Origin: a virus
Taxonomy: Duplodnaviria > Heunggongvirae > Uroviricota > Caudoviricetes
Direction: 5' to 3' (one strand)
Virus record (IMG/VR): IMGVR_UViG_2534681834_000006
Length of the DNA stretch: 64,000 bases
Numbering within the stretch: position 1 is the first letter of the stretch; every line of letters begins with the position of its first letter. The notes under the pieces are model-generated. The model searched no databases and was not told the DNA's origin. It saw only the letters and a list, made by a program, of their open reading frames with translations. Position numbers and translations under genes: made by a program. This document shows, one piece after another, positions 46,092 through 48,617 of this stretch.

Positions 46092-46721
46092 ATGAACATA
46101 CCACCCAGGGCGACTAGGACTGTTTTTTGTGTCGGTAGCGGTCCGTCACTCACTCGTGAGGACTGTGCTGCTATAGAAAAAACTGGCTGTTCAATCATTG
46201 CGGTTAACAATTCCTGGCTGATGTTCGATGACATTTATGCCTTATACGCCGGTGATTTGTCATGGTGGAAGCAATACGGTTCCACCATACCGGGAGGGAG
46301 GTTCCGCAAAGTGACAGCCAACCTGGCGGCGGCGAAATCATTTTCGTTGGAGTACAGGCGATATTGTAGACCGGCGGAAGGGGTAAATAGCGGCGCGCAG
46401 GCTATCAGTCTGGCTGCTGAATCAGGGGCTGAAGTAGTGGTATTAGTCGGCTATGACTGTTCTCTGCAAAACGGCCTTCATTGGCATGGCGCGCACCCTC
46501 AAGCCCTACGGAATCCAACGCAGGTGTCTATTTCAAAATGGCAACAGCAGTTCCTGGATACCCGCAAAAAACACGCAGATTTACATATTTTGAATGCAAG
46601 TAGGAGCAGTGCAATTCAATGTTTCCCAAGAATAAATTTAGAGGCAGTGATCGCGTTATTATCGTCGGCAGTGGCCCAAGCGCCGCAAACTTTGTTGCGC
46701 CGCGCGGAGTGCCGATTATAG
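46092..46721 (+). CDS. hypothetical protein, paralogue A (GSGPS and V-G-x-D motifs)
   Basis: ATG at 46092; FCVGSGPS...IIAVNNSW...SGAQAISLAAESGAEVVVLVGYD shared with the next ORF. Confidence 0.5.
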   Translation: MNIPPRATRTVFCVGSGPSLTREDCAAIEKTGCSIIAVNNSWLMFDDIYALYAGDLSWWKQYGSTIPGGRFRKVTANLAAAKSFSLEYRRYCRPAEGVNSGAQAISLAAESGAEVVVLVGYDCSLQNGLHWHGAHPQALRNPTQVSISKWQQQFLDTRKKHADLHILNASRSSAIQCFPRINLEAVIALLSSAVAQAPQTLLRRAECRL

Positions 46722-47245
46722 CGGTCAATGGGGCTATCGACTGGCTTAACCGCGCTTCTTATTTTTTCACACTTGATCCATCGCCAGACAATATGCGGCG
46801 CGTTGGTCGTGGCCGCCGTCGCCGTGGTGTTTGTTATTGCATGGCACTACCCGATGTTAAAGAACGTGAAGTCAGAGACGGCATTCTGTGCTTCCGTCGT
46901 GTGGCTGAACGCGGCACAGAGCCAAAAAATACGAATTCTCCCGAGTGGTGGGCGTGGCGCTGGTCCGCACATTTCGGCCTTTGCGAAGATGAGAATGAAA
47001 TTGCCAGCGGCAATAGTGCATATGGTGCTCTGAACCTGGCTTTCCATATCGGATTCAAACATGTAGCCCTGGTGGGCGTTGACGCTACGCAAGAACTACG
47101 CGTTCACTCCGGCGGCACGCCAAAAAATCTAAGTCACCTGCCTTTGTTATTCCAGTCTGCGCGTGAACAGATTGACGTTGTTTCATGCGGGAAAATGGGA
47201 GGTATTCCGCAGATGACTCTTAAAGAATGGCTGAAGAATACATGA
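46619..47245 (+). CDS. hypothetical protein, paralogue B
   Basis: IIVGSGPS...[10 protein letters not shown]...[23 protein letters not shown]; aggag RBS; overlaps paralogue A by about 100 nt. Confidence 0.5.
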
Positions 47246-47919
47246 TGGCACCCACAATTTATCACCGTATCGACGGTACCAAATACAGGAATGTCTGGGT
47301 TGTTGGTGATCTGCATGGTTGCTACACCAGACTGATGTCCGAACTCCATCGTGTGGATTTTGACCCGGCGCAGGATTTACTGATATCGGTCGGCGACCTT
47401 ATCGATCGCGGTACTGAAAATGTCGAATGTCTGGAACTATTGCAGATGCCCTGGTTCAGGGCAGTGATGGGGAACCATGAGCGGCTGATGATTGATGCGT
47501 TAAGTCCAGATGGCAACGTGAATAACTGGCTAATGAATGGCGGACAATGGTTCTTCATGCTGGACACTGATCAGGAAATATTAGCCTGGGCGCTGGTGGA
47601 GCTGGTAAAGCGTCTGCCCTATATCATTGAGTTGAACACCGGGCAAGAAACTATCGTTATAGCCCATGCCGACTATCCGGATAATGAATACCAATTCGGT
47701 AAGGAGGTGCCGCTTTTCAACGTTGTCTGGGCGCGCGAGCGTATCAGTGATTCGATGGATGATATTGGTGGCGAAATTTCGGGCGCAGATCGTTTTATCT
47801 TTGGTCACACTCCGGTGAAAAGCCCGAAGACATTCTGGAATCAGCAGTATATCGACACTGGTGCCGTATTTTGCGGAAACCTGACATTGATGAAAGTGAA
47901 AGGTGATGGTGCAGCATGA
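47245..47919 (+). CDS. ppp: Ser/Thr protein phosphatase (lambda PPase-like metallophosphatase)
   Basis: Near-collinear with lambda phosphatase as recalled: [42 protein letters not shown]; ATGATG coupling; track start 47227. Confidence 0.9.
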
Positions 47920-48617
47920 AGATTGCTTTAGTTTTTCGCTCTGGTGGTGACTATAACGCTTCCGATGTGCAGTGGCTGGTTAATCAACTGCCAAAAGGCT
48001 ATGAAATTATTTGCCTGACAGACCTGAAGCGTTTACATGTACCTGGCGTCAAAGTTGTCCCATTGATCAACCAGTGGCAAAAGTGCCGTGGCTGGTGGGC
48101 GAAAATCGAGTTGTTCCGACCGGATATAACAGATGATCTGTTCTATCTGGATTTGGACACAGTTATTGCCGGTGATATACGCCCAATCCTTGAGAATCCA
48201 CCAACCAGCTTCACCATGCTTAGGGATTTTTACCATCCACAATATCGTGGTAGCGGTGCCCTGTGGATACCAAATAGTGTAAAAGCGCATATCTGGAGTT
48301 CATTCTGGCAAGATCCGGAAGGTTGGATTTCTCGTTGTGTCACTACTGAGTGCTGGGGTGATCAGGGGTTCTTACGGAAGGTTATGGGCGATGATACACC
48401 AGCATTTCAGGATCTGTATCCAGGATGGTTTGTAAGTTACAAGGCCGATGTTGTGGAACCTGGTTCAAAATATGCGAGCGCGCGTTACTCCAGGGGGAAT
48501 GGGGCATTACCAAAGGACTGCCGAATAATCTTTTTCCACGGCAAACCGCGACCTCGCGAAGTGTCAGAGGATTGGCTTCCCCTTATTAGCTCGTTTTTTG
48601 AGCGAGAATCAGAATAA
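47916..48617 (+). CDS. hypothetical protein (possible nucleotide-sugar transferase fold)
   Basis: 233-aa ORF coupled to ppp (ATGA overlap); YLDLDTVI resembles a DXD-type motif, weak. Confidence 0.45.

What the first reader, a model, noticed from the sequence alone, without database searches (positions are those of the whole stretch)
46092..48617. Overlapping paralogous gene pair coupled to a lambda-type Ser/Thr phosphatase and a further unknown gene
Two adjacent ORFs share N-terminal (V/I)GSGPS...IIAVN and central SG..A..LA...G...V.LVG.D motifs, so they are diverged duplicates. They overlap by about 100 nt in different frames, and the second is coupled by ATGATG to ppp, itself coupled to a 233-aa protein. 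Tight coupling implies a co-expressed module, possibly a host-takeover or modification function. I cannot assign the paralogue family with confidence; the motifs are Rossmann-like.
Basis: seen in the sequence. Interest (0 to 1): 0.5.

Follow-up and report, generated by a model that had tools for sequence, protein, structure and literature searches.

The report
P1 glycosyltransferase cassette with inserted phosphatase
This is the already named but functionally uncharacterised pmgN-pmgO-pmgP-ppp-pmgQ operon of phage P1: two anciently duplicated sialyltransferase/Maf-like enzymes and a family-8 glycosyltransferase form a sugar-adding cassette shared by many phages, and the lambda-type phosphatase is a P1-lineage insertion into it, not a core part.

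Summary
The window is a P1-like phage (98-99% identical to P1, RCS47 and P7), and the four ORFs are pmgO, pmgP, ppp and pmgQ. They are preceded by the small gene pmgN and bounded by C1 repressor operators.

- **PmgO and PmgP are true homologues.** The profile-profile probability is 98.3% (E 1e-14) over nearly the full length.
- **Their 103-nt overlap is real and conserved.** The pmgP ATG sits inside the codons of PmgO's conserved Cys-Phe-Pro motif.
- **The folds are assignable.** PmgP models with high confidence as a Maf / MptE / Cst-type single Rossmann domain. PmgQ models as a family-8 (GT8) glycosyltransferase.
- **The conserved unit is PmgO-PmgP-PmgQ without Ppp.** Comparative genomics across at least three phyla shows this, usually in phage late (capsid, lysis or packaging) regions. 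Natural O-P and P-Q fusion proteins exist.
- **Ppp is not a core part.** It occurs in this cassette only in P1-like elements. One P1-like contig lacks it, and phage D6 carries ppp alone.

All four genes are dispensable in the laboratory, and I found no published function.

My best reading is a lytic-phase glycan-building cassette, probably using a CMP-ulosonic acid such as CMP-Kdo plus a UDP-hexose, and probably acting on a protein. The acceptor is unproven.

The parts
45863..45918 (.). Promoter region PpmgN and C1 repressor operator Oppp (operator at 45902-45918, minus strand), upstream of the operon
   Evidence: Transferred from the P1 AF234172 annotation at 98.4% identity. A sigma-70-like site at 45870-45898 was found independently.
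45962..46117 (+). pmgN, a 51-aa ORF with a GTG start and a GGGAGA Shine-Dalgarno sequence. Its 3' end overlaps the start of pmgO. Found only in P1-like elements.
   Evidence: P1 annotation, sequence, homologues only in P1-like loci
46059..46721 (+). pmgO (P7 hdmB), 220 aa, with an alternative ATG at 46092. A stand-alone MptE-like / Maf / GT42-like Rossmann domain, probably a CMP-sugar transferase subunit.
   Evidence: phrog_4603 at 1.6e-73. PF01973 at 6e-5, below the curated cut-off. Family profile against Cst-II gives E 0.006 over both nucleotide-binding motifs. Invariant residues G28 P29 S30 N50 D66 G131 D133 H141.
46619..46721 (+). 103-nt dual-coding overlap of pmgO (frame 0) and pmgP (frame -1). 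The pmgP ATG is embedded in the Cys-Phe-Pro codons of pmgO (A-TGT-TTC-CC).
   Evidence: The same arrangement occurs in 13 of 14 loci in all, counting this window.
46619..47245 (+). pmgP (P7 hdmC), 208 aa. An ancient paralogue of PmgO with the same fold.
47227..47919 (+). ppp, a lambda-type Ser/Thr (PPP-family) phosphatase. The likely true start is the ATG at 47242, which overlaps the pmgP stop codon. A lineage-specific insertion between pmgP and pmgQ.
   Evidence: 1G5B at E 1.5e-94. Metallophos at 9e-16. Absent from non-P1 cassettes and from L108. Stands alone in phage D6.
47916..48617 (+). pmgQ (P7 hdmD), 233 aa. A GT8-like retaining GT-A glycosyltransferase with a D79-L-D81 (DxD) motif and a C-terminal FHGKPRP motif.
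48619..48684 (.). Downstream boundary: C1 operators OpmgRa (48619-48635) and OpmgRb (48668-48684), flanking an 11-bp hairpin followed by a U-run (48644-48675)
   Evidence: P1 annotation, sequence, fold of -13.4 kcal/mol with z-score -5.65

Best explanation
The region is the C1-repressed lytic operon pmgN-pmgO-pmgP-ppp-pmgQ of a P1-like phage.

PmgO and PmgP are two anciently diverged copies of a minimal, roughly 200-aa Maf / MptE / GT42-type Rossmann domain. They probably work together as a hetero-oligomer and transfer an ulosonic acid from a CMP-sugar. In E. coli K-12 the only such donor is CMP-Kdo. PmgQ is a GT8-type retaining transferase that adds a hexose from a UDP-sugar.

Together the three make up a mobile phage glycan-building cassette. 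It is expressed with late genes and decorates an acceptor made in the infected cell. The acceptor is most likely Ser/Thr hydroxyls of a protein, with a virion protein the prime candidate.

ppp is a separately mobile lambda-type phosphatase gene that landed in the variable slot between pmgP and pmgQ in the P1 lineage. It is co-transcribed but is not a core component.

**Shown here:** homology, folds, gene overlaps, conserved synteny, gene fusions, and the lineage restriction of ppp.

**Taken from the literature:** the four genes are not essential.

**Inferred:** enzyme activity, the donor sugars, the hetero-oligomer, and the acceptor.
For: **Identity and operon structure:**

**PmgO-PmgP homology:**

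**Folds.**
- The PmgO profile matches both nucleotide motifs of Cst-II.

**Functional linkage of the trio.**
- PmgQ accompanies PmgP in every locus with enough flanking sequence.
- PmgO does so in most, across three phyla.
- Fusion proteins exist: O-P (P0164) and P-Q (P0223, P0311).

**A glycan context rather than a cofactor context.**
- Extra GT-A-like genes and FkbM or SAM methyltransferases are interleaved with the cassette.
- These occur in L004, L096, L102, L110, L112, L114, L115 and L179.

**Late or structural context.**
- Directly after the major capsid gene: L004/L107, L096/L113 and L005.
- Beside lysis or terminase genes: L003, L100, L105, L115.

**Hint of a protein acceptor.**
- The trio flanks an inverse-autotransporter Big_1 adhesin in five Pseudescherichia genomes, and again in L178.
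- One PmgO-type enzyme is fused to Big_1 domains.

**Donor.** Maf enzymes expressed in E. coli use CMP-Kdo (PMC11339370).

**ppp is not a core part:**

**Non-essential:** PMC10695390 table and PMC9024508.
Against: - No biochemical or mass-spectrometric evidence exists for any glycan on P1 virions. The P1 proteomics and cryo-EM papers I could search do not mention glycosylation. That is absence of mention, not a negative test.
- The P1 proteins score below Pfam's PF01973 cut-off, and PmgQ gets no Pfam hit.
- The fold is shared with pyrophosphokinases (MptE, TPK).
- Catalytic residues equivalent to Cst-II His188, Tyr156 and Tyr162 were not mapped.
- Several cassette positions are also classic moron hotspots: the P2 portal-proximal region and the lysis-terminase gap. 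Position alone therefore does not prove a virion substrate.
- GT8 enzymes and WaaZ-like Kdo transferases are also typical LPS-core enzymes.
- ppp has been stably kept in the operon across P1-like lineages with only 72-78% protein identity (L088, L121). It may therefore have been co-opted.
Confidence: 0.5

Rival explanations
1. Envelope editing. The trio modifies the host's LPS core or another lipid-linked glycan. PmgO and PmgP would act as WaaZ-like Kdo transferases and PmgQ as a WaaJ/WaaO/LgtC-like GT8 enzyme. The effect would be to mask the P1 receptor (the core glucose), preventing superinfection or the loss of progeny on cell debris.
For: - There are weak WaaZ signals: TIGR04437 at E 0.1 for PmgP, a faint PF27901 WaaZ_KDO_III hit on the O-P fusion, and hhalign E about 0.002.
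- Several cassette positions are moron hotspots.
- All hosts are Gram-negative.
Against: - The WaaZ similarity is far below threshold (11.9 against 200 bits; hhalign probability 11-16%).
- In P1 the operon is C1-repressed, so it is silent in the lysogen, where receptor masking by lysogenic conversion would act.
- In HK97-like prophages the genes are packed inside the head-gene block with no intergenic space.
- No LPS or capsule genes are adjacent in the chromosomal loci, whereas adhesin genes are.
- No match to any PADLOC defence family at meaningful significance (best E 0.024).
Confidence: 0.22
2. One reading: a four-protein functional module in which Ppp works with the glycosyltransferases. 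For example, Ppp might strip phosphate from Ser/Thr or from LPS heptose so that the site can be glycosylated, or it might regulate the enzymes.
For: - Translational coupling at both ppp junctions.
- ppp is retained at the same place in divergent P1-like elements (L088, L121).
Against: - ppp is absent from all cassettes outside P1-like elements and from the P1-like contig L108.
- PmgP-PmgQ are fused elsewhere, at exactly the point where ppp sits.
- In other phages that slot holds an unrelated GT-like gene or a methyltransferase.
- ppp occurs alone in phage D6, and as ninI in lambda (the lambda case is established knowledge).
Confidence: 0.13
3. PmgO and PmgP are not glycosyltransferases. They would be MptE/TPK-like pyrophosphokinases, or other nucleotide-dependent enzymes, making a small molecule.
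Against: - The best structural hit is the Maf glycosyltransferase.
- The only solved structure with an informative PmgO-family sequence match (E about 0.006-0.02) is the sialyltransferase Cst-II.
- PmgP is obligately associated with, and sometimes fused to, a GT8 glycosyltransferase. Other glycosyltransferases and sugar-type methyltransferases lie alongside.
- No pterin or thiamine pathway genes are nearby.
Confidence: 0.07
4. The overlap hides a programmed -1 ribosomal frameshift that makes a PmgO-PmgP fusion protein.
For: - pmgP is in the -1 frame.
- Two X_XXY_YYZ heptamers lie at the start of the overlap: T_TTC_CCA at 46622-28 and A_AAT_TTA at 46634-40.
- A natural O-P fusion protein exists.
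Against: - pmgP has its own Shine-Dalgarno sequence and ATG.
- The T_TTC_CCN heptamer is explained by the conserved Cys-Phe-Pro codons overlapping the ATG.
- The second heptamer is not conserved, and 7 of the 13 other loci have no heptamer at all.
- The -1 phase is the usual phase of overlapping bacterial genes.
- A slip at that site would delete PmgO's conserved C-terminal helix, which the natural fusion keeps.
Confidence: 0.03

Closest known systems
Maf (motility-associated factor) flagellin nonulosonic-acid O-glycosyltransferases (Pfam PF01973; structure 5MU5)
   Same: - Same GxGPS and S/N-S-G...G-x-D nucleotide motifs.
- Cytoplasmic enzymes that O-glycosylate Ser/Thr of a structural protein before assembly.
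- Maf enzymes can use CMP-Kdo in E. coli.
   Different: - Maf proteins are about 600-aa, three-domain, single-chain enzymes encoded in flagellar glycosylation islands.
- PmgO and PmgP are about 200-aa stand-alone central domains.
- They come as a conserved pair, sit in phages, and are always accompanied by a GT8 enzyme.
- They score below the Pfam cut-off.
Campylobacter Cst-I / Cst-II sialyltransferases (CAZy GT42)
   Same: - The only solved structures with an informative (sub-0.05) sequence-profile match to the PmgO family.
- Both CMP-binding motifs align (E 0.006).
- This is the basis of the PHROG/RefSeq label 'alpha-2,3-sialyltransferase'.
   Different: - Cst enzymes carry a lid domain and a membrane-association tail, and they act on lipo-oligosaccharide.
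- The catalytic His188, Tyr156 and Tyr162 were not mapped here.
- The P1 host, K-12, makes no CMP-sialic acid.
GT8 retaining glycosyltransferases (AgtA, GlyE, glycogenin, LgtC)
   Same: For PmgQ:
- DxD motif.
- C-terminal H-G-x-P-x-P motif.
   Different: - Only 13-16% identity, and no Pfam Glyco_transf_8 hit.
- Small (233 aa), with no extra domains.
- Obligately paired with, and sometimes fused to, a PmgP-type protein.
Mycobacteriophage virion glycosylation cassettes (glycosyltransferases plus O-methyltransferase modifying capsid and tail-tube proteins). Known to me from Freeman et al. 2023. Echoed in PMC11256854.
   Same: - Phage-encoded, non-essential clusters of several glycosyltransferases with methyltransferases.
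- Expressed with structural genes.
- A working analogy for the proposed function.
   Different: - Different enzyme families and Gram-positive-type hosts.
- Glycosylation is demonstrated there and not here.
Bacteriophage lambda Ser/Thr protein phosphatase (NinI; structure 1G5B)
   Same: Ppp aligns end to end (E 1.5e-94) with all the metallophosphoesterase motifs.
   Different: - Lambda and D6 carry the gene among nin-region genes.
- In P1 it sits inside a glycosyltransferase operon.

Membership tests
Pfam PF01973 MptE-like (DUF115 / MAF_flag10) | HMM score at or above the curated gathering cut-off (34.6 bits) | tested here: not met
   PmgO scores 23.2 bits and PmgP 20.9 bits. Several close family members of both do carry a precomputed PF01973 hit.
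Pfam PF01973 MptE-like (DUF115 / MAF_flag10) | Single Rossmann-type fold of the Maf central domain / MptE | tested here: met
   [not shown]
Maf flagellin glycosyltransferases | Three-domain architecture of about 600 aa, encoded in a flagellin glycosylation locus | tested here: not met
   PmgO is 220 aa and PmgP 208 aa, the central domain only. The context is phage late genes, not flagellar genes.
CAZy GT42 sialyltransferases (Cst-I/II) | Significant sequence similarity including the CMP-binding motifs | tested here: inconclusive
   The PmgO family profile against Cst-II gives E 0.006, with two motif stretches aligned. The PmgP profile finds nothing in PDB sequences.
CAZy GT42 sialyltransferases (Cst-I/II) | Catalytic His (His188 in Cst-II) and phosphate-binding tyrosines; CMP-Neu5Ac as donor | not testable with these tools
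   Invariant His141 (PmgO) and His173 (PmgP) follow the G-x-D motif, but I could not superpose them on Cst-II. Donor use needs biochemistry.
CAZy GT8 retaining glycosyltransferases | GT-A fold with a DxD motif and a C-terminal H-x-x-G-x-x-K/R-P-W-type metal/UDP motif | tested here: met
   [not shown]
CAZy GT8 retaining glycosyltransferases | Match to a Pfam glycosyltransferase family model at threshold | tested here: not met
   PmgQ has no Pfam hit at E <= 1 and no NCBIfam hit.
WaaZ Kdo-III transferase (GT73; TIGR04437 / PF27901) | Family HMM at the curated cut-off, or a confident profile alignment to E. coli WaaZ | tested here: not met
   TIGR04437 scores 11.9 bits against a cut-off of 200. 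hhalign to K-12 WaaZ gives probability 11-16%. There is only a 'faint' PF27901 hit on P0164.
Lambda-type PPP-family Ser/Thr phosphatase | GDxHG, GDxxDRG and GNHE motifs, with full-length similarity to lambda phosphatase | tested here: met
   GDLHG, GDLIDRG and GNHE are present. 1G5B gives E 1.5e-94 over residues 11-229. Metallophos scores 59 bits against a cut-off of 21.5.
Programmed -1 ribosomal frameshift site | Conserved slippery heptamer in the upstream frame, a downstream ORF without its own initiation signals, and a stimulatory structure | tested here: not met
   Heptamers are present in P1, but they are explained by the Cys-Phe-Pro codons and are not conserved. pmgP has its own Shine-Dalgarno sequence and ATG. 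A stimulatory structure was not examined.
Known anti-phage defence systems (PADLOC) | Match to a defence-system protein model | tested here: not met
   No meaningful hits for PmgN/O/P/Q, Ppp or the fourth GT-like family.

The most novel reading that the evidence does not exclude
PmgO-PmgP-PmgQ are a widespread, previously unrecognised phage system for O-glycosylating proteins with an ulosonic acid (Kdo in E. coli) plus a hexose. It would be a two-subunit 'mini-Maf' coupled to a GT8 enzyme, decorating virion proteins of Gram-negative phages, including the classic phage P1. The same system would have been domesticated in some enterobacteria to glycosylate Big_1-type inverse-autotransporter adhesins. 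In P1, Ppp may have been co-opted to clear phosphate from the acceptor sites.
Probability: 0.25. Interest if true: 0.75.

Novelty: new variant of a known kind. Interest (0 to 1): 0.5.

Why it matters
P1 is one of the most used phages in genetics, yet this five-gene operon has carried the placeholder 'putative morphogenetic function' for twenty years.

If the trio glycosylates virion or host proteins, three things would follow:
- It would be the first such system described for phages of Gram-negative bacteria.
- It would add a minimal heteromeric form to the Maf / sialyltransferase-like enzymes.
- It would offer small enzymes that may put Kdo-type sugars on proteins in E. coli.

It would also bear on phage immunogenicity and stability in therapy, as virion glycans do for mycobacteriophages.

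Even on the conservative reading, the analysis has practical value. It corrects the annotation: PmgP is a paralogue of PmgO, PmgQ is a GT8-type enzyme, and ppp is an insertion. It also defines a clean three-gene deletion to test.

Tried and rejected
1. **Programmed -1 frameshift fusing PmgO to PmgP.** Rejected after comparing 14 loci (this window and 13 others).
2. **Membership in the WaaZ (GT73) Kdo-transferase family.** Only sub-threshold signals.
3. **A known defence system.** No meaningful PADLOC hits.
4. **PDB sequence searches.** Single-sequence searches for PmgO, PmgP and PmgQ gave nothing useful. Nor did the PmgP family profile. Only the PmgO and PmgQ family profiles and the structure models were informative.
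5. **First viral-contig scan.** It returned only P1-like loci at 98-100% identity. A second scan, seeded with a Pseudomonas homologue, and the species-representative genome scan gave the diverse set.
6. **The afdb50 fold library** was unavailable.
7. **Literature.**
   - Searches for pmgO/P/Q, phage capsid glycosylation, DUF115 in phages, and sialyltransferase-like prophage genes found no functional study.
   - The P1 genome paper was not in the held library.
   - The P1 structure papers do not mention glycans.
8. **A Metallophos gene next to a P-Q fusion in L179.** I checked it as a possible second ppp association. It is on the opposite strand and is unrelated to Ppp.
9. **The exact pmgO start (46059 or 46092)** could not be settled. 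Neither ATG has a good Shine-Dalgarno sequence, and homologues differ at the N-terminus.
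Full report
**What the window is.** The 4.5 kb around the finding is 98.4-98.9% identical to phage P1, RCS47, SJ46 and P7. Using the P1 and P7 annotations, the four ORFs are pmgO (P7 hdmB), pmgP (hdmC), ppp and pmgQ (hdmD). They are preceded by the 51-aa gene pmgN. The unit is bounded upstream by the predicted promoter PpmgN and the C1 repressor operator Oppp, and downstream by operators OpmgRa and OpmgRb. An 11-bp hairpin with a U-run lies between the two downstream operators. The unit is therefore repressed in the lysogen and expressed in lytic growth. 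A late promoter, LPpmgL, lies further upstream.

**Checking the observation.**
- The coordinates, lengths and motifs are as described.
- The pmgO-pmgP overlap is 103 nt (46619-46721), with pmgP in the -1 frame.
- The overlap cannot be removed by choosing another start. 46619 is the first and only start codon before the conserved GSGPS loop (codons 17-21), and that loop lies upstream of the pmgO stop codon. A TAGGAG Shine-Dalgarno sequence precedes the start.
- In 13 other loci from diverse bacteria, 12 place pmgP in the same phase, and 11 of those overlap pmgO by 40-133 nt.
- In many of those loci the pmgP ATG is embedded in the codons of PmgO's conserved Cys-Phe-Pro motif (A-TGT-TTC-CC). PmgO's variable C-terminal tail is thus co-encoded with PmgP's conserved N-terminus.
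- pmgP/ppp and ppp/pmgQ are both joined by ATGA overlaps.
- A relative that lacks the annotated upstream ATG supports 47242 as the real ppp start.

**Are the two proteins paralogues?**
- Pairwise BLAST sees only the N-terminal motif (E 0.002).
- Each protein hits the other's PHROG family.
- Both give sub-threshold PF01973 hits.
- Profiles built from 33 and 34 homologues align over 161 columns with 98.3% probability, E 1.2e-14.

They are homologous. However, PmgO-type and PmgP-type proteins form separate families that co-occur in Gamma-, Beta- and Alphaproteobacteria, Bacteroidota and Gemmatimonadota. The duplication is therefore ancient, not a P1 event.

**Folds.**
- The PmgO family profile finds Cst-II in PDB sequences (E 0.006). 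Both CMP-binding motifs align.
- PmgQ's model (pLDDT 94.4) matches GT8 enzymes: AgtA 16.7, GlyE 16.6, glycogenin 16.5 and LgtC 16.3.
- The PmgQ family profile hits AgtA at E 1.6e-6.
- The DxD and FHG-P-P motifs of PmgQ are invariant.
- Ppp is a full-length lambda phosphatase homologue (1G5B, E 1.5e-94).

**What belongs together.** I collected contexts from contig look-ups, a species-representative genome scan and viral contigs.
- In every locus with enough flanking sequence, a PmgQ homologue accompanies PmgP. A PmgO homologue does so in most.
- Ppp is found only in P1-like elements.
- A 101-kb P1-like contig (L108) has O-P-Q followed by a PmgS-like gene, with no ppp.
- In other phages the slot between P and Q holds a fourth GT-like gene of about 192 aa, another glycosyltransferase, or a methyltransferase.
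- Natural fusion proteins exist: O-P (P0164), P-Q (P0223 and P0311) and O-O (P0281 and P0283).
- An exhaustive search with the O-P fusion finds 2133 clusters at E <= 1e-3. Most are stand-alone proteins of about 200 aa.
- Phage D6 carries ppp at 90% nucleotide identity among nin-type genes, with no pmgOPQ.

The conserved functional unit is therefore PmgO-PmgP-PmgQ, and ppp is an insertion into it.

**Where the cassette sits.**

| Context | Loci |
|---|---|
| Directly after the major capsid gene, ahead of the head-closure/head-completion genes | Pseudomonas L004/L107, Ochrobactrum L005, Zhongshania L096/L113 |
| Upstream of head-tail genes; capsid gene not resolved | Methylophilaceae L098 |
| Beside lysis or terminase genes | L003, L100, L105, L114, L115 |
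| After the portal gene of P2-like prophages | L110, L112 |
| Next to ribonucleotide reductase genes | One Bacteroidota locus, L102 |
| Around an inverse-autotransporter adhesin | Five Pseudescherichia chromosomes |

- In the Pseudescherichia chromosomes the adhesin has seven Big_1 domains, and no phage genes are nearby.
- An independent contig (L178) again combines a PmgO-type enzyme and a PmgQ homologue with such an adhesin. There the PmgO-type enzyme is fused to Big_1 domains.
- FkbM or SAM methyltransferases recur in the cassette.

**Most likely mechanism.** The steps shown are homology, fold, operon structure, synteny and fusions. The rest is inference.
- PmgO and PmgP probably act as a hetero-oligomeric CMP-sugar transferase.
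- K-12 makes only CMP-Kdo among CMP-sugars (established knowledge), and the cassettes carry no sugar-nucleotide synthesis genes. Maf enzymes have been shown to use CMP-Kdo in E. coli (PMC11339370). Kdo is therefore the likeliest sugar in P1's host.
- PmgQ would add an alpha-linked hexose from a UDP-sugar.
- Co-transcription with head and lysis genes, and the adhesin islands, point to a protein acceptor. A virion protein is the prime candidate in phages.

Confidence by part:
- About 0.85 for 'glycosyltransferase trio with ppp as a passenger'.
- About 0.4 for a protein acceptor.
- Lower still for a virion acceptor specifically.

**Rivals.**
- LPS-core editing remains serious, at about 0.22. GT8 and Kdo transferases are typical core enzymes, and several cassette positions are moron hotspots. 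Against it, the WaaZ signals are far below threshold and the P1 operon is off in lysogens.
- A true four-protein module including Ppp is unlikely as a general rule, but P1-specific co-option is possible.
- A pyrophosphokinase activity is disfavoured by the obligate glycosyltransferase partners.
- A -1 frameshift fusion is disfavoured by comparative data.

**Known or new.**
- The genes are annotated in P1 and P7. RefSeq and PHROGs already label PmgO 'alpha-2,3-sialyltransferase' and PmgQ 'glycosyltransferase'.
- All four genes are dispensable for plaque formation, by CRISPRi and by deletion (PMC10695390; PMC9024508).
- I found no study of their function.
- New here are five points: PmgP is shown to be a full-length paralogue of PmgO, PmgQ is placed in GT8, the O-P-Q unit is conserved with fusions across phyla, the gene overlap is conserved, and ppp is not a core part.
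- I rate this a new variant of known enzyme kinds, in a well-known genome, with moderate interest.

Noticed in passing
window 49053-49060 (within pmgS, 48919-50182): A run of eight T where P1 and P7 have seven. This splits pmgS into a 47-aa ORF (48919-49062) and a 401-aa ORF (48977-50182). It is a frameshift in a homopolymer, so it could be a sequencing error, a pseudogene or slippage-prone phase variation.
   Followed up: partly
window 45962-46117 (pmgN): A 51-aa gene overlapping the pmgO start, found only in P1-like elements. CRISPRi knock-down scored it 'essential' (plating efficiency 1.4e-2), whereas its deletion and the knock-down of every downstream gene were harmless. The discrepancy is unexplained.
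   Followed up: no
L004:7254-7835, also L105, L107, L110, L112, L115: A recurrent protein of about 192 aa with a DVD (DxD-like) motif and no Pfam or PHROG match. It travels with the O-P-Q cassette and often sits between pmgP and pmgQ, where P1 has ppp. It is probably a fourth, undescribed GT-A-like transferase.
   Followed up: partly
L090-L094 (Pseudescherichia chromosomes) and L178: PmgO/P/Q homologues flank inverse-autotransporter adhesins rich in Big_1 domains. In L178 they lie together with a holin and a lysozyme gene, and with a PmgO::Big_1 fusion protein (P0231). This may be a domesticated adhesin-glycosylation island.
   Followed up: partly
window 48644-48675: A strong 11-bp hairpin followed by a U-run (-13.4 kcal/mol, z-score -5.65) between the two C1 operators downstream of pmgQ. 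It overlaps operator OpmgRb and lies after the annotated PpmgR promoter. The consensus terminator scan did not list it.
   Followed up: partly
window 45070-45895 (pmgL, pmgM): Upstream genes of the same late transcription unit. PmgL has a CxxC...CxxC zinc-ribbon-like motif, and RefSeq annotates pmgM as a VRR-NUC nuclease-domain protein. Neither looks 'morphogenetic'.
   Followed up: no
window 50255-50761 (pap): A second phosphatase-type gene lies 1.6 kb downstream, annotated as the P1 acid phosphatase Pap. It is in a separate C1-controlled unit and was not analysed.
   Followed up: no
L179:5747-6592 (minus strand): A 281-aa Metallophos-family gene lies convergent to a cassette made of PmgO, a PmgP-PmgQ fusion and an FkbM methyltransferase. 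It is unrelated in sequence to Ppp, so it is probably a coincidence.
   Followed up: yes
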